Shown: positions 9,281 through 29,049 of the stretch, piece after piece
Numbering within the stretch: position 1 is the stretch's first letter
Layout of the letters: each line of letters opens with the position of its first letter
Origin: Vibrio vulnificus CMCP6
Lineage (GTDB): Bacteria; Pseudomonadota; Gammaproteobacteria; Enterobacterales; Vibrionaceae
DNA: 32,000 bases
Direction: 5' to 3'
Assembly (NCBI RefSeq): GCF_000039765.1
Contig: NC_004459.3
Location: forward strand, 300,001-332,000
Program-made: the position numbers and the translations under genes
Notes under the pieces: generated by a model
The model's input: the letters and a program-made list of their open reading frames with translations, nothing else
The model's database searches: none
Told to the model about the DNA's origin: nothing

Positions 9281-10390
9281 TTATTCACACACATACTCAA
9301 CAACATTCAAACCAAAACCGCCAAGGGCATGGTATTTCTTGTTGCTGGAAGAAAGTAGACGCATGTCGTGCACACCTAAGTCTGCAAGAATTTGCGAGCC
9401 GACACCAACACGACGTGAAGTGCCCTGCTTCTTAGCCAATTTAGGCGCCTCTTCTTTGTCTTGAGCTTCAAACATTTTGACGCGATGGATCAGCAGCTCA
9501 GGCGACTCTTCATTCCCTAGAATCACCAAAACGCCCCCTTCTTGGCCAATACGCTTCATCGCTTTATCAAGCGTCCAACTGCGCTCAGCATTGCGATCGC
9601 TGCGCAGTAAATCGGTAAAGGTGTCTTGTAAGTGAACACGAACCAGTGGTGTTTGATCACCCATCGTACCTTTACGCAAAGCAAAGTGAATTTGATTATC
9701 AATGGTGTCGCGGTAGGTCACGAGATCAAACTCACCAAACTCAGTGGGTAGCTTGCACTCAGCAACGCGCTCAATCGTGGTTTCCGTGTTGTTTCGATAC
9801 TCAATCAAATCGGCAATGGTGCCAAGTTTGAGACCATGCTGCTCAGCAAACACTTCCAAATCAGGGCGGCGCGCCATGGTGCCATCGTCATTCAGAATTT
9901 CAACGATAACAGAGGCTGGTTCGAAACCCGCCAAACGAGCAAGGTCGCAGCCCGCCTCAGTATGCCCCGCGCGAGTCAACACGCCACCATCTTGCGCGGC
10001 TAATGGGAAAATGTGCCCCGGTTGCACCAAGTCTGCCGCTTTAGCTTCTTTTGCGACTGCCGCTTGCACGGTACGAGCACGATCCGCTGCTGAAATACCG
10101 GTTGTCACGCCTTCCGCCGCTTCAATGGAAACGGTGAAGTTGGTAGTGTATTGCGCGTTGTTATCTTGCACCATTGGTGGTAATCCAAGACGCTGGCAAC
10201 GCTCTTTGGTCATAGTCAAACAGATCAAACCGCGACCATATTTGGCCATAAAATTGATGGCTTCTGGCGTAATGTGCTCCGCCGCCATAATCAAATCACC
10301 TTCGTTTTCGCGGTCTTCATCGTCCATTAAGATGACCATTTTGCCCAAACGAATGTCTTCAATGATCTCTTGGGGTGTACTGATTGGCAT
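9281..10390 (-). CDS. ribBA: 3,4-dihydroxy-2-butanone-4-phosphate synthase fused to a degenerate GTP cyclohydrolase II-like domain (RibBX-type 'RibBA')
   Basis: The N-terminal half matches RibB ([28 protein letters not shown]). The C-terminal half aligns to RibA, but the zinc-binding region reads [22 protein letters not shown] where E. coli RibA has [22 protein letters not shown]. Start set at the ATG at 10390 ([10 protein letters not shown]). Confidence 0.88.
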
Positions 10391-17369: not shown

Positions 17370-17834
17370 TTACTTCTGCTTTCGGTTTACTGGTTCAGCG
17401 TAAGCCAATGCCATATCCCATGGCTGCTCAATCCAAGTATCTTGAGCGATGTCGACGACATAATCATCCAACAACTCTTTACCAGAAGGTTTTGCACAAA
17501 CCGCAATCAGTTTCGCTTTAGGGTACATTTCACGCAGTTTACGCGCGGTGTCACCGCTATCAACTAGATCTTCAACGATTAGGTAGCCTTCGCCGTCACC
17601 TTCCGGTGCTTTCAGTACAGTCATATCACGTTGATGATCGTGGTCATAGCTGGAAATACAGATGGTGTCGACATAGCGAATACCTAGCTCACGAGCCAGA
17701 ATAGCCCCAGGAACCAAACCACCACGGCTCACTGCCCAAATGCCTTTCCATTGGTCTGCTGGCATCTGTTTTTCAGCAAGTTGACGGCAGTAAGTTTGCA
17801 TGGCGTCCCAGGTAATAACGAATTTGTTGCTCAT
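17370..17834 (-). CDS. gpt: Xanthine-guanine phosphoribosyltransferase
   Basis: 154 aa. [20 protein letters not shown]... and the PRPP-binding loop [13 protein letters not shown] are colinear with E. coli Gpt. Confidence 0.95.
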
Positions 17835-17978: not shown

Positions 17979-19268
17979 TTAAGCCACCAGATACTTGATG
18001 ATAAAAATAGCCGACATAATCCAGACGCTGAGTGAAACATCACGCCCTTTTCCGCTGAACAATTTAATGGCAGCGTACGCGATGAAACCTAAAGAAATCC
18101 CTTCTGCAATCGAGAAAGTCAGTGGCATCAGCAAGCATGTCACAACAACAGGAGCCGCCTCGGTTAAGTCGCGCCAATCAATGCTGACCAATCCAGAAAG
18201 CATCAAAATTGCCACGTAGAACAGGGCACCCGCTGTTGCGTACGCGGGAATCATGCCTGCCAGTGGTGAGAAGAACAGTGCCAATAGGAATAGCACACCC
18301 ACGACAACCGCCGTTAAACCTGTACGGCCACCAGCCGCCACACCAGAGACACTTTCGATGTAAGACGTTGTGTTTGATGTCCCTAGTAGCGCACCTACAG
18401 AAGTCGCTGTTGAGTCAGCCAGCAGTGCTTTGTTCAAACGTGGCAGTTTGCCATCTTTCTCAATCAGGTTCGCTTTGGTTGCAACACCCACGAGCGTGCC
18501 CGCTGTGTCGAACAAGTCAACGAACAAGAAAGCAAACACCACTGAAATCATGCCTACTTCAAATACCGCAGAGAAGTCCAGTTGCATGAACGTAGGCGCA
18601 ATACTTGGTGGGGTTGACATCACACCCGCCCATTGGACATCACCAAACACCAAACCAAGTGCCGTCACAGCTAAGATCGCAATCATTACTGCCCCTTTCA
18701 CACCACGGTGAACCAGTGCAATAGTCAAAAAGAAACCAAAAGCCGCCAGAGCTGGTGCGAGAGAAGTGATATCGCCAAGAGAAACAAACGTCGCAGGATT
18801 ATCAACAACAATGCCTGCATTTTTCAGAGCAATGAACGCAAGGAACAAGCCGATACCCGCTGAGATCCCCGTTCTCAAAGAGAGCGGAATCGAGTTGATG
18901 ATCCACTCACGAATTTTGAAGATGCTCAACAGGATAAAAAGCACACCCGACACAAATACGGCCGCCAATGCGACTTGCCAGGTGTATCCCATTCCCAGAA
19001 CAACCGCGTAGGTAAAGAAGGCATTTAAGCCCATACCTGGCGCCTGTGCGATTGGGTAGTTGGCAAGTAGACCCATAATGAAACAGCCAATTGCTGCGGC
19101 AAGACAGGTAGCAACAAACACGGCACCACGGTCCATTCCCGCATCAGCTAGAATCGCTGGGTTAACAAAAATGATGTAAGCCATCGTCAAGAAGGTAGTA
19201 ATACCTGCAATGATCTCAGTGCGCACATTTGTGCCATGTTCGCTGAGTTTAAATAGCCTTTCGAGCAT
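17979..19268 (-). CDS. NCS2/AzgA-family purine (adenine/hypoxanthine/guanine) permease
   Basis: 429-aa polytopic membrane protein. The N-terminus LERLFKLSEHGTNVRTEIIAGITTFLTMAYIIFVNPAIL is typical of the AzgA-like branch (E. coli AdeP/GhxP/AdeQ group). Substrate cannot be assigned from sequence alone. Confidence 0.88.
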   Translation of the reverse strand: MLERLFKLSEHGTNVRTEIIAGITTFLTMAYIIFVNPAILADAGMDRGAVFVATCLAAAIGCFIMGLLANYPIAQAPGMGLNAFFTYAVVLGMGYTWQVALAAVFVSGVLFILLSIFKIREWIINSIPLSLRTGISAGIGLFLAFIALKNAGIVVDNPATFVSLGDITSLAPALAAFGFFLTIALVHRGVKGAVMIAILAVTALGLVFGDVQWAGVMSTPPSIAPTFMQLDFSAVFEVGMISVVFAFLFVDLFDTAGTLVGVATKANLIEKDGKLPRLNKALLADSTATSVGALLGTSNTTSYIESVSGVAAGGRTGLTAVVVGVLFLLALFFSPLAGMIPAYATAGALFYVAILMLSGLVSIDWRDLTEAAPVVVTCLLMPLTFSIAEGISLGFIAYAAIKLFSGKGRDVSLSVWIMSAIFIIKYLVA

Positions 19269-19290
19269 GATCGAATCCTGTAAAGGTAAA

Positions 19291-19306
19291 AAGTAAACGG
19301 TTGCGT
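19291..19306 (-). promoter_or_regulatory. PurR-box-like operator in front of the purine permease gene
   Basis: The minus strand reads ACGCAACCGTTTACTT against the PurR consensus ACGCAAACGTTTGCGT (3 mismatches, central CG kept). It lies 23 nt upstream of the ATG and 16 nt downstream of a TATAAT at 19323-19328. Confidence 0.55.
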
Positions 19307-19608
19307 AATCGATTGGCTGCAGATTATAAAGTTATCAAATAACAAATTCCAGATAGATTTTTCACTCTAATAAAGATTTCTCGCTGGATTATGAAACCAA
19401 TTCAGCAAGAAAAATTAGCCGCTATTATTTTTCCTTTAAGAAACAACCAGAAAAAACAGGGGCTTTAGAAGATAAACTGAAGAATAAATCGACAATGTCG
19501 TAAACTTACACGGAATAACGAGGAAAAATTGCAGAGTTTACATGTAAGAAATGCGGCGGATTCGATTGGTTTCGGAAGTGAGGTCTGTTCTCGTATCACT
19601 AATATTGA

Positions 19609-19642
19609 GAAAACAAAAAAACGCCACTCAATTTGAGTGGCG
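19609..19642 (-). terminator. Strong rho-independent terminator (minus strand only) inside the permease-pepD intergenic region
   Basis: CGCCACTCA-AAT-TGAGTGGCG (19622-19642). On the minus strand it is followed by UUUUUUUGUUUUC. The plus-strand side has no U-tract, so it terminates a minus-strand transcript coming from higher coordinates. Confidence 0.85.
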
Positions 19643-19733
19643 GTAGAATCATGTCAGTTCGATTACTGAAAGAAAATTCCAATTTAGGGGTGAACAAATC
19701 GTTCGGGGGTCACATGCACTTGGTTAGCGTACG

Positions 19734-19823
19734 TTACTTGTAACCAAAGCTTGTTGGGTATGCAAAGTTGCTGGTGTAAACAGAGTTGTTTGTCCAAAAC
19801 ATTGCAGATGCTAAACCTTTCAT
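19734..19823 (-). CDS. 29-aa small protein, MKGLASAMFWTNNSVYTSNFAYPTSFGYK (VcdP-like candidate)
   Basis: Below the ORF-track cutoff. ATG at 19823 is preceded by AAGGTGA with 5-nt spacing, and the TAA stop is at 19734-19736. It is followed about 90 nt later by a strong terminator. The size equals the 29 aa reported for VcdP, but I cannot recall that sequence to confirm identity. Confidence 0.55.
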   Translation of the reverse strand: MKGLASAMFWTNNSVYTSNFAYPTSFGYK

Positions 19824-19933
19824 AACTATCACCTTATTAAATCAATTAAACACGTTTGATTTCTCGGTTCCTTGGAGGCGATAAACGGACTCATCCTTTG
19901 AGCATTTTGTCTTCGCTTTAGAAGTTGGTTACA

Positions 19934-19961
19934 AATATACCACCAAGAAATTTTATTACAA
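19934..19961 (-). promoter_or_regulatory. Candidate sigma70 promoter for the small-ORF transcript
   Basis: The minus strand reads TTGTAA, 16 nt spacer, TATATT, immediately downstream of the CRP-like site. Pattern match only; other start sites nearer the ORF are possible. Confidence 0.3.
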
Positions 19962-19968
19962 TACTTTT

Positions 19969-19984
19969 AGTGATTAAAATCACA
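19969..19984. promoter_or_regulatory. Near-consensus CRP (cAMP receptor protein) binding site
   Basis: AGTGA-ttaaaa-TCACA against the consensus TGTGA-N6-TCACA (9 of 10 core positions, correct 6-bp spacer). It lies in the AT-rich divergent region between the small-ORF unit and pepD. Confidence 0.7.
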
Positions 19985-20276
19985 TAAATTTCATTTAATG
20001 ATCTATATCAAGTTAATTTGGTAATTAAATTACAGAATTATCAAACTCAAAATAGGTTAAGTTACAGAGCATAACCAACCAATTGAGTAAGCGCTGACAG
20101 CGATGTTCACATTCTGTGACAGTGCACTTGTAAACAGCCTGTGACTGGCACTACTCGGCTCTGCTTGCAAGTGATATCCTTGCTCACAACTTATTATCTG
20201 CTGAACCCACAACCATCTAATCTACTGGGCTAACAGCAGTGCCATCATCCGGCAAACCTAGAAAAAGGAGTCATCT

Positions 20277-21749
20277 GTGTCTGAGTTCCATTCTGAAATC
20301 AGTACCTTATCACCTGCTCCACTTTGGCAGTTTTTTGATAAGATTTGTTCTATCCCACACCCATCAAAGCATGAAGAAGCCCTTGCTCAGTACATCGTCA
20401 ACTGGGCGACGGAGCAAGGTCTAGACGTCCGTCGCGATCCAACCGGCAATGTGTTTATTAAAAAGCCTGCGACACCAGGCATGGAAAACAAAAAGGGTGT
20501 TGTTCTTCAAGCGCACATCGACATGGTGCCTCAGAAAAACGAAGACACTCAACACGACTTCGCCACCGATCCTATTCGTCCATACATTGACGGTGAGTGG
20601 GTGACCGCAGAAGGTACGACGCTCGGTGCGGATAATGGAATTGGCATGGCTTCCTGCCTTGCGGTGTTGGCCTCAACAGAGATCAAGCATGGTCCAATTG
20701 AAGTACTGCTAACCATTGATGAAGAAGCGGGCATGACGGGTGCTTTTGGTTTGGAAGCGGGTTGGCTAGAAGGCGACATTCTTCTTAATACCGATTCTGA
20801 ACAAGAAGGTGAAGTCTACATGGGCTGCGCAGGCGGTATCGACGGCGCGATGACGTTTGATATTCAACGCGAAGCGGTTCCTGCGGGCTTTATTACTCGT
20901 CAGTTAACGCTAAAAGGCTTAAAAGGCGGTCACTCAGGTTGTGACATCCACACTGGCCGCGGTAACGCAAACAAACTGATGGCACGTTTCCTTGCTGGCC
21001 ATGCACAAGAATTGGATCTGCGTTTAGTAGAGTTCCGCGGTGGTAGCCTGCGTAATGCGATTCCTCGTGAAGCATTCGTCAAAGTGGCGCTGCCTGCAGA
21101 AAAACAAGATAAGCTTGCTCAACTGTTTGACTACTACACTGAACTTCTAAAAACCGAGCTCGGTAAAGTGGAAACCAACATTGTCACGTTTAACCAAGCG
21201 GTTGATGTGGAAGCTGGTGTATTGACGAATGCTGATCAACAACGCTTTGTCGCTGCATTAAATGCTTGTCCAAACGGTGTCATTCGCATGAGCGATGAGA
21301 TTGAAGGTGTGGTTGAAACGTCGCTTAACGTGGGTGTAATCACCACTGAAGAGAACAAAATCACCGTATTGTGCTTGATCCGTTCACTGATCGACTCAGG
21401 TCGCAGCCAAGTGGAAAGCATGCTGACATCAGTAGCGGAACTGGCAGGTGCACACATCGTGTTCTCTGGCGCTTACCCAGGTTGGAAACCGGATGCTGAT
21501 TCTGAAATCATGGCGATCTTCCGTGATATGTACGAAGGCATTTACGGTCACAAACCGAACATCATGGTCATTCACGCGGGCCTAGAATGCGGCCTATTCA
21601 AGAAACCTTACCCTGACATGGACATGGTGTCATTTGGCCCAACGATTAAATTCCCGCACTCTCCAGATGAAAAAGTGAAGATTGACACGGTACAACTCTA
21701 CTGGGATCAAATGGTGGCGTTACTGGAAGCGATTCCTGAAAAGGCGTAA
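20277..21749 (+). CDS. pepD: Cytosol non-specific dipeptidase / aminoacyl-histidine dipeptidase PepD (M20 family)
   Basis: 490 aa. GTG start preceded by AAAAAGGAG. Carries M20 metal-ligand motifs (QAHIDMV, GADNGIGMA, TIDEEAGMTGA) and is colinear with E. coli PepD. Confidence 0.93.
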   Translation: MSEFHSEISTLSPAPLWQFFDKICSIPHPSKHEEALAQYIVNWATEQGLDVRRDPTGNVFIKKPATPGMENKKGVVLQAHIDMVPQKNEDTQHDFATDPIRPYIDGEWVTAEGTTLGADNGIGMASCLAVLASTEIKHGPIEVLLTIDEEAGMTGAFGLEAGWLEGDILLNTDSEQEGEVYMGCAGGIDGAMTFDIQREAVPAGFITRQLTLKGLKGGHSGCDIHTGRGNANKLMARFLAGHAQELDLRLVEFRGGSLRNAIPREAFVKVALPAEKQDKLAQLFDYYTELLKTELGKVETNIVTFNQAVDVEAGVLTNADQQRFVAALNACPNGVIRMSDEIEGVVETSLNVGVITTEENKITVLCLIRSLIDSGRSQVESMLTSVAELAGAHIVFSGAYPGWKPDADSEIMAIFRDMYEGIYGHKPNIMVIHAGLECGLFKKPYPDMDMVSFGPTIKFPHSPDEKVKIDTVQLYWDQMVALLEAIPEKA

Positions 21750-21805: not shown

Positions 21806-22345
21806 TTAAGCACGATTTTGCGCGTAAGCCGCTAGCTCATCCATTGAAGTTTGTGCAACCACTTCACCATCAATGTAGTACGTCACGAAATCACCTTCAC
21901 GTACACCGGTCAATATCGCTTTTTCACCATTGTTGTAGGTGATGTCCATTTGAACGGTATTTTCGTCGATCTGCTGCATCATACCTTGCTCAATGATACG
22001 GTTGTTCGTTAACGGCGCAATCGGTGCAGTTGTTAGCGACTTGTCTAGTTGGTGGTTCACATCAATGTAAGTGTCCATCTTAGTGTCAAAGATGTGTGGC
22101 TTGCCGTTTAGAGGGTTTTTGCCCGTCCAGAATTCCAGTGAGTTAAACACAATGTAGTCTGCTGCAATCGCCACACCGTATACTGGCGCCAACAACATGT
22201 TTAGACCACCACGAGCATAACGGTTGTCTACAGCTTTCAGGTTGAAGCCCATAACATAACCCGTTACTGCATTGCTACCTACACAGCCAGACAATGCCAT
22301 TGCTGCTACAGATAATGCCACGACTTTAGTGATCGTCTTTTTCAT
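21806..22345 (-). CDS. DUF3332-type lipoprotein, function unknown
   Basis: 179 aa. Has a signal peptide with lipobox MKKTITKVVALSVAAMALSGC. The conserved NRYARGG..LLAPVYG...FNS.EFWTG stretch is what I associate with DUF3332 lipoproteins. ATG preceded by GAGGT. Confidence 0.8.
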   Translation of the reverse strand: MKKTITKVVALSVAAMALSGCVGSNAVTGYVMGFNLKAVDNRYARGGLNMLLAPVYGVAIAADYIVFNSLEFWTGKNPLNGKPHIFDTKMDTYIDVNHQLDKSLTTAPIAPLTNNRIIEQGMMQQIDENTVQMDITYNNGEKAILTGVREGDFVTYYIDGEVVAQTSMDELAAYAQNRA

Positions 22346-24858: not shown

Positions 24859-27800
24859 TTAGCCTAGATTTTTGCGTGCGTTTTGGAACATACGCATCCA
24901 CGCGCCATTTTCACCCCAACCTTCTGGTGCCCATGAGTTCGCTACGGTGCGGAAGACACGCTCTGGGTGCGGCATCATGATGGTTACGCGACCATCTTTT
25001 GTCGTCAAACCGGTAATCGCATTTGGTGAACCATTCGGGTTGTTCGGGTATTGCTGTGTTGGATTTCCTAGGTTATCAACAAAGCGGACCGCAACGGTGC
25101 CCGATGCTTCAATCGCAGCGAGATGTTGAGCATCGCGTACTTCCACGCGACCTTCGCCGTGCGAAACAGCGATAGGCATACGAGAGCCAGCCATGCCATC
25201 AAAGAAGACGGAATCCGATTTCTGTACTTCGACTAGGCTAAAGCGTGCTTCAAAACGCTCTGATTCGTTGCGAACGAAACGTGGCCACAAGTCGGCACCT
25301 GGGATCAATTCTTTCAAGTTTGAAAGCATCTGACAGCCGTTACATACACCCAGTGAGAAGGTGTTTTCACGATTAAAGAAGGCTTGGAACTGCTCACGTG
25401 CTTGCGCATTAAAGAGCACAGATTTCGCCCAACCTTCACCCGCACCTAATACATCACCGTACGAGAAACCACCACAAGCCACTAGACCATGGTACTCATC
25501 CAGCACTGCTTGACCCGTCAGAATGTCACTCATGTGGATGTCAGTCGCTTCAAAGCCAGCACGGTCAAACGCTGCTGCCATTTCAACGTGAGAGTTAACC
25601 CCCTGCTCACGCAGGATCGCCATCTTAGGTTTCGCGCCTTTCGCGATATAAGGAGCTGCGATATCTTCATTCACATCAAAGCTTAGAGATACATTCAGAC
25701 CTGGGTCTGAATTGTCTTTCTTCGCTTCAAACTCTTGGTCTGCACACGCTGGGTTATCGCGCAGTGCCTGCATCTTATGCGTCGTTTCCGCCCAGATAAC
25801 ACGCAAATCTGTGCGTGAACGTTCCAGTATCACAGCATCACCAGAGCGAATCACAAAGTTGTCTGAAGCATCAATTGCACCAATTACGTGTGAACACGCT
25901 TCTAGACCATTTGCCGCCAACGTCGACAGCACGGAATCCAATTCATCGTTCTTAACTTGAACAACCGCACCGAGCTCTTCGTTAAATAACGCAGCCAGAA
26001 CATCGTCACCCAACGCAGCGATATTCGCGTTGACACCGCAGTGACCAGCAAATGCCATCTCTGCAAGCGTCACCAATAGGCCACCATCCCCTTTATCGTG
26101 GTACGCAAGCAATTTGTCTTGACGAACCAGAGCTTGCATCGCATCGAAGAAGCCTTTCAACTGTTCTGCGTTGTCGACGTCAGCCGGTTTATCACCCAAT
26201 TGCTTGTAAACCTGAGCCAGCGCCGTAGCACCTAGGCGGTTCTTACCGTTGCCAAGGTCAACAAGAACAAGTGAAGTCTCGCCTTTGTCGGTACGCAGCT
26301 GAGGAGTAATGGTTTTACGTACATCTTCAACACGAGCAAACGCGGTGATGATCAGAGACAGTGGAGAAGTCACTTCTTTCTCTTCACCGTTCTCATTCCA
26401 CTTGGTCTTCATTGACATTGAGTCTTTACCAACAGGGATAGTAAGACCTAATGCAGGGCACAGTTCTTCACCCACCGCTTTCACCGCTTCGTAAAGACCC
26501 GCGTCTTCACCTGGGTGACCTGCTGGTGACATCCAGTTTGCCGACAGCTTAATGCGCTTGATATCGCCGATGTCAGTCGCTGCGATGTTAGTGAGAGACT
26601 CACCAACGGCTAGACGAGCTGACGCGCCAAAATCAAGCAGCGCAACAGGCGTACGTTCACCCATAGACATCGCTTCACCGTGGTACGTATCGTAGCTGGC
26701 AGCTGTTACTGCACAGTTTGCAACTGGCACCTGCCACGGACCGACCATTTGGTCGCGCGCCACTAAGCCTGTGACGGTACGGTCACCAATGGTGATCAAG
26801 AAAGTTTTTTCAGCCACGGTTGGAAGACGAAGTACACGATCCACCGCTTCATTAAGTTCGATGCCATCACGCGTCATCGCTGGGCTGTCCACTTTGAGTG
26901 TGGTTGCTTCACGGTGCATCTTTGGTGGTTTGCCAAGCAGAATGTCCATTGGCATATCAATCGGTGTATTGTCGAAGTGCGCATCTTCCAGCGTTAGGTG
27001 ACGCTCTTCCGTTGCCACACCGACCACGGCGTATGGCGCACGCTCACGTTTACAGATTGCATCAAATGCCGCCATGTTTTCTGGTGCGACCGCGAGCACA
27101 TAACGCTCTTGAGATTCGTTACACCAGATTTCCAATGGGCTCATTCCCGGTTCATCGTTTGGTACATCGCGCAGCTGGAACTTACCACCACGCTCACCAT
27201 CATTGACCAATTCGGGTAACGCATTTGAAATACCACCTGCGCCAACATCGTGAATAAACGCGATTGGGTTGTTGTCGCCAAGCTGCCAACAGCGATCGAT
27301 CACTTCCTGACAACGGCGTTCCATCTCTGGGTTTTCACGCTGTACCGAAGCAAAATCCAGATCTTCGGCCGACTGACCTGATGCCATAGACGAAGCGGCA
27401 CCACCACCCAGACCAATGTTCATCGCCGGGCCACCCAGTACGATTAAGCTCGCACCGACAGGGATCTCTTTCTTCTGCACGTGTTCATCACGAATGTTAC
27501 CCATACCACCAGCAATCATGATTGGCTTGTGGTAGCCACGCACTTCTTCACCTGCGTGTGACGTCACTTTCTCTTCGTAAGTACGGAAGTAACCAAGGAG
27601 GTTTGGACGACCAAATTCATTGTTGAATGCCGCGCCACCAAGCGGGCCTTCTAGCATGATGTCAAGGGCGTTGACAATACGACCCGGCTTACCAAAATCG
27701 GTTTCCCATGGCTGTTCAAAGCCAGGAATGCGCAAGTTCGAGGTGGTAAAGCCAACCAGACCCGCTTTTGGCTTGCCGCCAATACCGGTTGCGCCTTCGT

Positions 27801-28752
27801 CACGAATTTCACCACCAGAACCGGTGGAAGCACCTGGCCATGGTGAAATTGCGGTTGGGTGGTTGTGCGTCTCTACCTTCATCAAGATGTGTGCATCTTC
27901 GTGATGGTAGTTGTATTGACGCGTTTCTGGATCGGGGAAGAAACGACCCACTTTTGAACCCGTCATTACCGCCGCGTTATCTTTGTAGGCAGACAGCACG
28001 TGATCTGGCGTTGTTTCAAAGGTATTTTTGATCATCTTAAACAGCGATTTTGGCTGTTCCACACCGTCGATCGTCCAATCGGCGTTAAAGATCTTGTGAC
28101 GACAGTGCTCAGAGTTGGCCTGAGCAAACATCATAAGTTCGATGTCATTTGGATTACGGCCAAGCTTAGTAAAGTTCTCCACCAAGTAATCAATTTCATC
28201 TTCTGCCAATGCTAGGCCAAGTGAAACGTTGGCTTCTTCAAGCGCGAGACGACCTCCAGAAAGGATATCCACCTGAGTCATTGGTGCAGGCTGCGCAACG
28301 CTGAACAATGCCGCTGCCGCTTCTAGATCACCAAATACCGCTTCCATCATACGGTCATGAATAATGCTTTTTACGATGTCGATTTGTACGCTAGAAAGCT
28401 CTGAAGACGACTCAACATAGTACGCCGTGCCGCGCTCTAAACGCTTCACTGCGTTAAGGCCACAGTTTTGTGCAATGTCTGTCGCTTTTGATGACCAAGG
28501 AGAGATGGTGCCAGGACGAGGAGTGACCAGCAATAAGAGACCTTGAGGCTCGTGCTCTTCGATAGTTGGGCCGTAAGTAAGAAGTTTCTCTAACTTTTCT
28601 AGCGCTTCTGCGTCTAACTCAGAGGTCAAATCCGCAAAGTGCATAAACTCGGCGTAAATGCCCGTTACAGGCAGATCTTGTTCACGACAAAGTTCCAGTA
28701 GTTTATTAACTCGAAACTCAGAAAGAGCTGGGGAGCCACGCAAAATTCTCAT
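24859..28752 (-). CDS. purL: Phosphoribosylformylglycinamidine synthase (large, single-chain)
   Basis: From the ATG at 28752 it reads [19 protein letters not shown]..., 1297 aa, colinear with E. coli PurL (1295 aa). It includes the C-terminal glutamine amidotransferase Cys (LGVCNGCQM). The track's 58-codon N-terminal extension was removed. Confidence 0.96.
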
Positions 28753-28860
28753 GTGCTTAGGTCTCTTATGCAATTGATTAAGGTGATATTGGAATAAATT
28801 CAGTGGGTTATACTGTTTTACTTCGAACTTATGCCGATTGCACCTCTCTGTTGCGGGCGC

Positions 28861-28890
28861 ATTATATAGCAATTGTTTTTGTGATGTAAC
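28861..28890 (-). promoter_or_regulatory. Candidate sigma70 promoter for purL
   Basis: The minus strand reads GTTACA, 18 nt spacer, TATAAT (perfect -10 at 28861-28866), about 110 nt upstream of the purL ATG and directly downstream of the PurR box. Confidence 0.45.
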
Positions 28891-28895
28891 ACCAA

Positions 28896-28911
28896 AAGCA
28901 ACCGTTTGCGT
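28896..28911. promoter_or_regulatory. PurR-box operator upstream of purL
   Basis: The minus strand reads ACGCAAACGGTTGCTT against the consensus ACGCAAACGTTTGCGT (2 mismatches). It lies 5 nt upstream of the putative -35. purL is a classical PurR-regulon member. Confidence 0.7.
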
Positions 28912-29049
28912 CACTTTTTTTGTCAAATTTGAAATACAACCAAAATGTCGTCGCTAAGAAAAGGTGTACAATTTTGCCTATCGCTTTTTCTTTGCCTACC
29001 TTGCCCGCTTTGATATAAAGAGACGAATCGATTTTTGAGAGCAGACTTG

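What the first reader, a model, noticed from the sequence alone, without database searches (positions are those of the whole stretch)
19609..19927. Hidden small gene in the 1-kb permease-pepD gap: 29-codon ORF, C-rich 3' region and strong terminator (VcdRP-like dual-function RNA?)
The only long gap in this tightly packed core region (19269-20276) is not empty.

What the sequence shows on the minus strand:
- An SD-led (AAGGTGA) 29-codon ORF at 19734-19823, encoding MKGLASAMFWTNNSVYTSNFAYPTSFGYK. It is aromatic-rich and not hydrophobic, so it does not look like a type I toxin.
- A roughly 90-nt untranslated 3' segment carrying CCCCC and CCCC motifs. The first sits in the loop of a GUGA/UCAC stem, the classic look of an sRNA seed that pairs with G-rich ribosome-binding sites.
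- A textbook intrinsic terminator (9-bp GC-rich stem plus U7).

From memory of the literature, V. cholerae encodes a CRP-repressed dual-function RNA, VcdRP. Its 29-aa peptide VcdP activates citrate synthase, and its RNA part represses PTS sugar-transporter mRNAs. The size, architecture and adjacent CRP site all fit. I cannot confirm sequence identity or the genomic location without a search.

Standard annotation pipelines and the supplied ORF track miss this locus.
Basis: partly seen in the sequence, partly recalled or inferred. Interest (0 to 1): 0.7.

Follow-up and report, generated by a model that had tools for sequence, protein, structure and literature searches.

The report
Known Vibrio dual-function RNA vcdRP

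Summary
On the minus strand there is a promoter with a CRP box, a 29-codon ORF behind a Shine-Dalgarno sequence (19823-19734), a 91-nt 3' region and a strong terminator. Together they predict a transcript of about 312 nt (19926-19615).

It is the ortholog of V. cholerae vcdRP (Venkat 2021):
- The peptide passes NCBI's curated equivalog model NF053523.1 'small protein VcdP' (62.5 bits, cutoff 50).
- The gene order matches vc2278 / vcdRP / vc2279 (pepD).
- V. cholerae sequence taken from the paper's oligos aligns collinearly and puts the ATG at +104, as published.
- The CRP box matches the ChIP-seq-bound V. cholerae site at 15 of 16 positions.
- Of 80 pepD-anchored Vibrio and Aliivibrio loci, 75 carry the ORF and 74 have it intact. 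pN/pS is 0.42 in frame and 1.0-1.2 out of frame.

The V. vulnificus ortholog is already published.

- The functional, invariant seed is the second C-run (19690-19687).
- The CCCCC run and the GUGA/UCAC stem are not conserved.
- Annotation pipelines now have a model for VcdP.

Modest extras:
- An invariant 5' leader is predicted to sequester the vcdP Shine-Dalgarno sequence.
- Two Vibrio lineages kept the RNA part but lost vcdP.

The parts
19969..19984 (-). CRP-binding box TGTGATTTTAATCACT, centred about 50.5 bp upstream of the inferred TSS
   Evidence: It is the only TGTGA-N6-TCAC site in the window. It matches 15 of 16 positions of the reverse complement of the ChIP-seq-bound V. cholerae site GGTGATTAAAATCACA in VC2278<>VC2279. 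The half-sites are about 90-100% conserved across species.
19934..19961 (-). Sigma-70 promoter: -35 TTGTAA (19961-19956), 16-nt spacer, extended -10 TGgTATATT (19942-19934)
   Evidence: Found by the promoter scan. The -35 box is essentially invariant and the -10 box is highly conserved. It aligns with the V. cholerae promoter rebuilt from oligos KPO-1283, KPO-2112 and KPO-1219, at 45 of 54 positions.
19615..19926 (-). Predicted primary vcdRP transcript, about 312 nt (306 nt in V. cholerae)
   Evidence: The TSS is placed at 19926 by homology to the 5' end of the V. cholerae construct oligo KPO-1219. This puts the ATG at +104 and the stop at +193, exactly as published. The 3' end is the terminator T-run. 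The TSS and length are inferred, not measured here.
19911..19924 (-). 5' hairpin 1 (CUUC / GAAG)
   Evidence: Three of its 4 pairs show compensatory changes across species, for example GUUGA/UCAAC and GCUG/CAGC.
19858..19909 (-). Near-invariant 5' leader block. It holds hairpin 2 (19903-19889) with GGA in its loop, a second GGA (19871-19869) and the anti-SD-like AUCGCCUCC (19882-19874).
   Evidence: It has the lowest diversity of any long stretch (0.105, against 0.248 for the ORF). The hairpin 2 stem covaries. AUCGCCU (19882-19876) is predicted to pair with the SD AGGUGAU: it appears in the centroid fold and in the RNAalifold consensus, with probability 0.92 in the window. Its function has not been tested, and the literature I read does not discuss it.
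19829..19835 (-). Shine-Dalgarno AAGGTGA of vcdP
   Evidence: GGTGAT is invariant in all 73 aligned sequences.
19734..19823 (-). vcdP ORF: 29 codons plus TAA, encoding MKGLASAMFWTNNSVYTSNFAYPTSFGYK
   Evidence: It scores 62.5 bits against NCBIfam NF053523.1 VcdP, whose cutoff is 50. It matches V. cholerae VcdP at 22 of 28 aligned residues, including SVYT. The ORF is intact in 74 of 75 homologous loci. pN/pS is 0.42, against 1.2 and 1.0 in the shifted frames.
19705..19709 (-). Lineage-specific CCCCC run (not the conserved seed)
   Evidence: It is present only in the window and in L001 (V. floridensis). Most species read GA--CTCGAAC at this position.
19691..19704 (-). Small hairpin GAAC-N5-GUUC immediately 5' of the seed
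   Evidence: It is in the MFE and centroid folds. 92.9% of cells are paired, but covariation is weak, with only 1 of 4 pairs changed on both sides.
19679..19699 (-). VcdR base-pairing region AUUUGUUCACCCCUAAAUUGG. The CCCC seed is at 19690-19687.
   Evidence: The CCCC run is invariant in 73 sequences. The region matches V. cholerae oligo KPO-2109 (TTTTGTTACCCCTAAATTGG) at 19 of 19 positions with a 1-nt insertion. The seed is unpaired in the predicted folds. [quoted passage not shown]
19655..19668 (-). Pre-terminator hairpin (CAGU / ACUG)
   Evidence: All 5 pairs show compensatory changes across species.
19615..19642 (-). Rho-independent terminator: stem CGCCACUCA/UGAGUGGCG followed by U7
   Evidence: Found by the terminator scan. 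98.7% of cells are paired and 4 of 9 pairs show compensatory changes.

Best explanation
Window 19984-19615 (minus strand) is the ortholog of the Vibrio cholerae dual-function RNA gene vcdRP (formerly vcr082; called VvdRP in V. vulnificus).

How it most likely works:
- A sigma-70 promoter with an adjacent cAMP-CRP box drives a transcript of about 312 nt. The transcript is made when cAMP-CRP is low, that is, when glucose is available.
- The middle of the transcript is translated into the 29-aa peptide VcdP. In V. cholerae, VcdP binds citrate synthase (GltA) and raises its activity.
- The 3' part (VcdR) is an Hfq-dependent sRNA. RNase E releases it as shorter isoforms. [quoted passage not shown]

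Shown here: sequence identity, synteny, purifying selection on the ORF, invariance of the seed, and covariation-supported hairpins.
Inferred by orthology from V. cholerae experiments: transcription, CRP repression, translation, GltA binding and the target set.
For: 1. Family model. The peptide scores 62.5 bits against the NCBIfam equivalog NF053523.1 'small protein VcdP' (cutoff 50). V. cholerae VcdP scores 68.
2. Location. The paper places vcdRP between vc2278 and vc2279 on the minus strand. VC2278/VC2279 are annotated 'membrane protein, putative/pepD'. The window has permease (17979-19268, minus), the element, then pepD (20277-21749, plus), with gpt upstream.
3. Architecture. With the TSS at 19926, set by homology to oligo KPO-1219, the ORF spans +104 to +193, exactly as published. 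The predicted length is 312 nt against 306 nt.
4. Direct sequence comparison. V. cholerae fragments from the oligo table align collinearly: promoter plus TSS 45/54, leader 19/20, SD plus start 41/48, seed 19/19.
5. Peptide. VcdP matches at 22 of 28 aligned residues. This includes SVYT, the residues changed to alanine in the paper's VcdP* mutant.
6. CRP box. It matches the ChIP-seq-bound V. cholerae site at 15 of 16 positions.
7. Conservation. Of 80 pepD-anchored Vibrio and Aliivibrio loci, 75 carry the ORF and 74 have it intact at 27-34 aa.
8. Coding selection. Codon-position diversity is 0.213, 0.197 and 0.339. pN/pS is 0.42 in frame, against 1.2 and 1.0 out of frame.
9. RNA features. The CCCC seed is invariant in 73 sequences. 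The structure is 96.6% paired, against 34-45% in slid controls, and has 133 doubly changed cells against 32 in shuffles.
10. Prior publication. The V. vulnificus ortholog is in the published alignment, and its expression was measured as VvdRP.
Against: - All function is carried over by orthology.
- The peptide differs from V. cholerae VcdP at 6 of 28 aligned positions. It also lacks Asn2 and has an extra C-terminal Lys.
- The seed context has a 1-nt insertion (UUCACCCC against UUACCCC).
- The one expression study in V. vulnificus reported induction in glycerol and no change in glucose, the opposite of V. cholerae. Its authors caution that media and methods differ.
- I could not retrieve the ptsG, nagE, treB and ptsH 5' regions of this genome, so seed-target complementarity was not checked.
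- Rfam 15 has no family for this RNA, so no RNA-family test was possible.
Confidence: 0.96

Rival explanations
1. The small ORF plus terminator is a leader-peptide attenuator of the downstream permease gene on the same strand, not an independent gene.
For: The element and the permease are both on the minus strand. The terminator (19642-19615) lies upstream of the permease start at 19268.
Against: - 346 nt separate the terminator from the permease start.
- That stretch carries its own TATAAT (19328-19323) and a PurR-type box (19306-19293).
- The TATAAT and PurR-type box are also conserved in loci that have lost the small gene entirely, L056 and L074.
- No alternative anti-terminator pairing appears in the folds.
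- In V. cholerae the RNA accumulates as a discrete, Hfq-bound, trans-acting sRNA.
Confidence: 0.02
2. It is a purely non-coding sRNA, and the 29-codon ORF is fortuitous and untranslated in this organism.
For: - The non-coding parts (leader, seed, terminator) are at least as conserved as the ORF.
- Some lineages (L041, L058, L054) have lost or interrupted the ORF while keeping the seed.
- The SD is predicted to be largely paired.
Against: - pN/pS is 0.42 in frame, against 1.0-1.2 in the shifted frames, and third-position diversity is elevated.
- The ORF is intact in 74 of 75 loci, with conserved start, length and SD.
- The peptide passes the curated VcdP HMM.
- Translation and GltA binding were shown in V. 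cholerae with an SPA tag, a GFP fusion and co-immunoprecipitation.
Confidence: 0.03
3. It is a type I toxin-antitoxin or other small-toxin locus.
For: It is a small ORF with a strong SD in an intergenic region, and its mRNA is structured.
Against: - The peptide is aromatic and polar with no hydrophobic helix (read directly from the sequence).
- It is a single-copy core gene at a fixed syntenic position across Vibrio and Aliivibrio.
- No antisense promoter or terminator was found in the scan.
- It matches the VcdP family.
Confidence: 0.01

Closest known systems
VcdRP (Vcr082) of Vibrio cholerae, Venkat et al. 2021 EMBO J (PMC8672173); its V. vulnificus ortholog was studied as 'VvdRP' (PMC9737408)
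   Same: - Same genomic slot (permease/VC2278 - vcdRP - pepD/VC2279) and same strand.
- CRP box identical at 15 of 16 positions.
- Same -35 and extended -10 boxes.
- ATG at +104 and stop at +193.
- VcdP family peptide with SVYT retained.
- CACCCC seed followed by UAAAUUGGAAUUU.
- Rho-independent terminator.
- Similar length, 312 nt against 306 nt.
   Different: - The peptide lacks Asn2, has an extra C-terminal Lys and differs at 6 of 28 aligned residues.
- There is an 11-nt insertion after the stop codon.
- An extra CCCCC run (19709-19705) is shared only with V. floridensis.
- The seed context has a 1-nt insertion.
- The pre-terminator hairpin differs in sequence but keeps its pairing.
- The reported carbon-source response in V. 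vulnificus differs from V. cholerae.
SgrS/SgrT of enterobacteria
   Same: It is a dual-function RNA with the small ORF upstream of a 3' base-pairing region that represses PTS transporter mRNAs. In some lineages the ORF is lost while the seed is kept. The paper reports this for sgrT, and it is seen here for vcdP in L041 and L058.
   Different: There is no sequence relationship. SgrS is activated by SgrR under sugar-phosphate stress, not repressed by CRP. SgrT blocks PtsG, whereas VcdP activates citrate synthase.
Spot 42/SpfP and AzuCR/AzuC of E. coli
   Same: They are CRP-repressed dual-function RNAs of carbon metabolism. AzuC, like VcdP, is a peptide of under 30 aa that activates a metabolic enzyme.
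   Different: The sequences are unrelated. In both, the coding and base-pairing regions overlap, whereas in VcdRP they are separate. The protein partners also differ: CRP for SpfP and GlpD for AzuC.

Membership tests
VcdRP dual-function RNA / VcdP small protein | Encodes a peptide belonging to the VcdP family | tested here: met
   It scores 62.5 bits against the NCBIfam equivalog NF053523.1, above the curated cutoff of 50. It matches V. cholerae VcdP at 22 of 28 aligned residues. That sequence was rebuilt from Appendix Fig S3 and from oligos KPO-2090, KPO-2085 and KPO-4716.
VcdRP dual-function RNA / VcdP small protein | Located between the VC2278 (membrane protein/permease) and VC2279 (pepD) orthologs, on the strand opposite to pepD | tested here: met
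   The window has permease 17979-19268 (minus), the element (minus), then pepD 20277-21749 (plus). The paper and Bradley 2011 give the same arrangement. The position is the same in 75 of 80 loci.
VcdRP dual-function RNA / VcdP small protein | Conserved 3' base-pairing sequence ending in four consecutive cytosines, upstream of a Rho-independent terminator | tested here: met
   CCCC at 19690-19687 is invariant in 73 sequences. It is identical in context to V. cholerae oligo KPO-2109 apart from a 1-nt insertion. It is unpaired in the folds. The terminator was found.
VcdRP dual-function RNA / VcdP small protein | Transcript architecture: about 306 nt, with the ORF at +104 to +193 | tested here: met
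   With the TSS set at 19926 by homology, the ATG is at +104, the stop at +193 and the length is 312 nt. The TSS is inferred, not measured.
VcdRP dual-function RNA / VcdP small protein | Promoter with a CRP-binding site; transcription repressed by cAMP-CRP | tested here: inconclusive
   The site is present and matches the ChIP-seq-bound V. cholerae site at 15 of 16 positions. Repression itself cannot be tested with these tools. The V. vulnificus qPCR data are ambiguous.
VcdRP dual-function RNA / VcdP small protein | ORF is translated and under selection as a protein | tested here: met
   Selection: pN/pS is 0.42 in frame against 1.0-1.2 out of frame, and 74 of 75 ORFs are intact. Translation itself cannot be tested here.
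VcdRP dual-function RNA / VcdP small protein | VcdP binds and activates citrate synthase GltA | not testable with these tools
   This was shown only in V. cholerae. The residues changed in the paper's VcdP* mutant (SVYT, 15-18) are conserved in the window peptide.
VcdRP dual-function RNA / VcdP small protein | [quoted passage not shown] | not tested
By homology, the 5' ends of the V. cholerae 87-nt and 71-nt isoforms correspond to window 19699 and 19683.
Rfam RNA families | Match at gathering score to a curated covariance model | tested here: not met
   No Rfam 15 family matches the element. The best hit was Hrs12 at 27.3 bits against a gathering score of 70, and it rests on terminator resemblance only. 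Rfam appears to have no VcdRP model.

The most novel reading that the evidence does not exclude
The near-invariant 5' leader (19909-19858) may be an undescribed cis-regulatory module. It would decide whether the transcript acts as vcdP mRNA or is left to serve as VcdR sRNA.

- AUCGCCU (19882-19876) is predicted to sequester the vcdP Shine-Dalgarno sequence.
- Two invariant GGA motifs resemble CsrA-type binding sites. One sits in the loop of a hairpin whose stem covaries.
- The leader and the ORF were lost together in two lineages that kept the promoter, seed and terminator.

These points are consistent with the leader serving the coding function.
Probability: 0.25. Interest if true: 0.5.

Novelty: already known. 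Interest (0 to 1): 0.15.

Why it matters
For the scan, this is a positive control. A tool-less reader recognised a real, experimentally characterised dual-function RNA from raw sequence alone. Biologically it adds little, because VcdRP, its conservation in Vibrio and its V. vulnificus ortholog are all published, and NCBI already has an HMM for VcdP.

Two by-products go modestly beyond the seven-species alignment of the original paper and bear on how dual-function RNAs split their two roles:
- The 5' leader is the most conserved part of the gene and is predicted to mask the vcdP ribosome-binding site.
- At least two Vibrio lineages have become 'VcdR-only', as happens with SgrS/SgrT.

Tried and rejected
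- **Rfam.** A gathering-threshold scan of the whole window and a permissive scan of the gap found no family for the element. The Hrs12 hit (27.3 bits against 70) is only terminator resemblance.
Rejected: 72% of cells paired, no better than shuffles, and the C-run is not conserved.
- **Leader decay in L054.** I tested whether the leader of L054 (vcdP with a premature stop) is unusually decayed, as a sign that leader and ORF are coupled. It is not. It has 4 mismatches, fewer than mediterranei-clade sequences (L060-L066, L071, L073) that have intact ORFs, so I dropped the argument.
- **Exact look-up of the peptides in the protein collection.** The window and V. cholerae peptides are absent. Only the common 28-aa form is present, as a 'hypothetical protein'.
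- **Machine-read VcdP sequence in Appendix Fig S3** (…GNEFYPRSEFY). I treated it as misread and corrected it from oligos KPO-4716 and KPO-2085 to …GNFAYPRSFGY.
- **Local alignment of oligos KPO-2110 and KPO-2040.** These gave spurious placements in the window, because the pre-terminator hairpin varies in sequence.
- **Literature link between VcdRP and CsrA.** Only general reviews turned up, with no direct data.
- **Attenuator and toxin readings.** Considered and rejected; see the rival explanations.

Full report
**1. Observation**

- The ORF runs from ATG at 19823 to TAA at 19736-19734 and encodes MKGLASAMFWTNNSVYTSNFAYPTSFGYK.
- AAGGTGA at 19835-19829 precedes it.
- A 91-nt untranslated stretch follows, containing CCCCC (19709-19705) and CCCC (19690-19687).
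- The terminator has a stem at 19642-19622 (9 pairs, 6 G-C, loop of 3) and seven T at 19621-19615.
- The same scan finds one sigma-70-like promoter on this strand: TTGTAA at 19961-19956, a 16-nt spacer and TATATT ending at 19934, with TG upstream.
- TGTGATTTTAATCAC at 19984-19970 is the only CRP-type box in the 32-kb window.

The flanking genes are a xanthine phosphoribosyltransferase (17370-17834, minus), a 429-aa permease (17979-19268, minus) and a PepD-type dipeptidase (20277-21749, plus).

**2. Identity**

The paper describing VcdRP (Venkat et al. 2021, PMC8672173) gives these features:
- The gene lies between vc2278 and vc2279 on the negative strand.
- The transcript is 306 nt, with the ORF at positions 104-193.
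- The RNA binds Hfq, is processed by RNase E and is repressed by CRP.

An independent paper annotates VC2278/VC2279 as 'membrane protein, putative/pepD', which is the window's gene order.

The paper's oligonucleotide table gives exact V. cholerae sequence.
- The 5' end of the expression construct, AGCTTCGCTAGCGAAGAG, aligns with window AACTTCTAAAGCGAAGAC starting at 19926. This puts the window ATG at +104 and the stop at +193, as published, and gives a predicted length of 312 nt.
- Other fragments align collinearly: promoter plus TSS 45/54, leader 19/20, SD plus start 41/48, and seed TTTTGTTACCCCTAAATTGG 19/19 with a one-base insertion.

V. cholerae VcdP is MNKGLSSAMFWNQHSVYTGNFAYPRSFGY. I rebuilt it from the machine-read Appendix Fig S3 and corrected it from the oligos. 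The window peptide matches at 22 of 28 aligned residues. It keeps SVYT, the residues changed to alanine in the paper's VcdP* mutant.

NCBIfam holds a curated equivalog model for 'small protein VcdP', NF053523.1. The window peptide scores 62.5 bits against a cutoff of 50.

The CRP ChIP-seq study of V. cholerae lists a bound site, GGTGATTAAAATCACA, in VC2278<>VC2279. Its reverse complement matches the window box at 15 of 16 positions.

**3. Comparative evidence**

I anchored the search on PepD, which does not depend on the small gene. It returned 80 loci from Vibrio and Aliivibrio species. The closest, V. floridensis IRLE0018, is about 97% identical in DNA over 4.9 kb. The window therefore comes from the V. 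vulnificus/floridensis clade.
- A VcdP homolog lies about 460 bp upstream of pepD, on the opposite strand, in 75 of the 80 loci.
- The ORF is intact in 74 of those, at 27-34 codons.
- Diversity by codon position is 0.213, 0.197 and 0.339. Pooled pN/pS is 0.42 in frame, against 1.2 and 1.0 in the two shifted frames. The ORF is therefore under selection as a protein.
- In the 73-sequence alignment A1, the CCCC seed, GGTGAT of the SD, and much of the leader and terminator are invariant.
- A six-helix structure is 96.6% paired, against 34-45% when the partners are slid. It has 133 doubly changed cells against 32 in shuffles, with 0 of 500 shuffles reaching that number.
- Compensatory changes occur in all 5 pairs of the pre-terminator hairpin, 3 of 4 in the 5' hairpin and 4 of 9 in the terminator.

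**4.
Most species read GA--CTCGAAC there.
- The proposed GUGA/UCAC stem is no better than shuffles. The folds predict a GAAC/GUUC hairpin instead, which leaves both C-runs unpaired.
- The conserved, experimentally defined seed is the second run, at 19690-19687.
- The claim that annotation pipelines miss the locus is out of date, given NF053523.1. The common 28-aa form is even deposited as a hypothetical protein.
- Rfam has no family for the RNA.

**5. Mechanism**

By orthology, cAMP-CRP bound at 19984-19969 represses the promoter. When glucose is available the RNA is made.
- VcdP is translated and activates citrate synthase.
- The 3' part, probably after RNase E cleavage, uses the CACCCC seed with Hfq to block translation of PTS mRNAs. 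By homology to the V. cholerae 87-nt isoform, the cleaved form would start near 19699.

Only sequence-level facts are shown here. All biochemistry is inferred from V. cholerae. The single V. vulnificus expression study found the RNA expressed, but with a different carbon-source response.

**6. Novelty**

This is already known. The V. vulnificus sequence is in the published alignment, and the ortholog has been named VvdRP.

**7. What goes slightly beyond the literature**

First, the leader block 19909-19858 is the most conserved long stretch of the gene, with diversity 0.105 against 0.248 for the ORF.
- It contains a hairpin (19903-19889) whose stem covaries and whose loop always keeps GGA.
- It contains a second GGA at 19871-19869.
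- It contains AUCGCCU (19882-19876), which pairs with the SD AGGUGAU in the centroid fold and in the RNAalifold consensus.
- That helix has probability 0.92 in the window and a median of 0.62 across species. Only 3% of leader shuffles leave the SD as buried.
- Five of the 7 pairs never vary and none shows a compensatory change, so covariation can neither support nor refute the helix.
- The papers I read do not discuss the leader.

Second, the gene has been modified or lost in some lineages.
- V. plantisponsor (L058) and a Vibrio MAG (L041) keep the CRP box, promoter, seed, hairpin and terminator. They have lost the leader, the SD and most of vcdP.
- L057 holds a decayed remnant.
- V. pectenicida (L056) and V. 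profundum (L074) lack the locus.
- L054 has a premature stop in vcdP.

This qualifies the paper's statement that the ORF and the seed are conserved together in all tested species.

Noticed in passing
L058:2699-3500 (V. plantisponsor) and L041:2173-3015 (Vibrio MAG), minus strand: These are 'VcdR-only' versions of the locus. The CRP box, promoter, CACCCC seed, pre-terminator hairpin and terminator are retained. The conserved leader, the SD and most of vcdP are gone, leaving a 16-codon or frameshifted remnant. This is analogous to sgrS without sgrT, and it was not seen in the 7-species alignment of the original paper.
   Followed up: partly
L056, L074, L057, L054 (upstream of pepD): V. pectenicida (L056) and V. 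profundum (L074) have no vcdRP at all; their permease-pepD gaps are 422 and 363 bp against a median of 1021 bp. L057 has a decayed remnant with neither CCCC nor an intact terminator. L054 has TGG changed to TAG at codon 10 of vcdP, with the seed intact.
   Followed up: partly
window 19858-19909 (minus): The 5' leader is more conserved than the ORF. It has a covarying hairpin with an invariant GGA in its loop, a second GGA, and AUCGCCU predicted to pair with the vcdP SD (P = 0.92). It may be a translational switch or a CsrA-type site. The papers I read do not mention it.
   Followed up: partly
window 19705-19709; L060-L066, L071, L073 (pre-terminator hairpin loop); L058 and L041 (remnant ORF): Extra C-runs have arisen independently in different lineages: CCCCC in the window and V. 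floridensis, UACCCCAAU in the loop of the pre-terminator hairpin of the mediterranei clade, and CACCCCACAC in the VcdR-only loci. They may be additional seeds. This was not tested.
   Followed up: no
window 19293-19306 (minus) and 28896-28911: A PurR-type operator, ACGCAACCGTTTAC, lies just downstream of a TATAAT (19328-19323) in front of the permease. It is also conserved in loci without vcdRP. A second, palindromic PurR-type box sits at the start of the 1355-codon ORF at 24859-28926, which is purL-like by size only. The pattern has 3 matches against 0.22 expected by chance.
   Followed up: partly
window 10193-10293 (+): There is an Rfam gathering-score hit to V_AS9 (Vibrio antisense RNA AS9): 66.2 bits against a threshold of 50.
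   Followed up: no
window 19565-19612 and downstream of 21749: The window and V. floridensis L001 are 97% identical across gpt, the permease, vcdRP and pepD. The alignment breaks for about 47 nt just downstream of the vcdRP terminator and ends right after the pepD stop. The 179-aa ORF at 21806-22345 is therefore not shared at that position.
   Followed up: no
L010:2829-3154; L035, L044, L047 (between vcdP stop and seed): L010 encodes a 34-aa VcdP, produced by a tandem duplication of FVYPTS. L035, L044 and L047 carry an insertion of about 70 nt between the stop codon and the seed region.
   Followed up: no
window 17370-17834 (minus): The gpt-like protein scores 334.8 bits against the NCBIfam 'exception' model Tet(34), a xanthine phosphoribosyltransferase. 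This is just under the 345 cutoff, so it is an ordinary Vibrio Gpt and not a called resistance gene.
   Followed up: no
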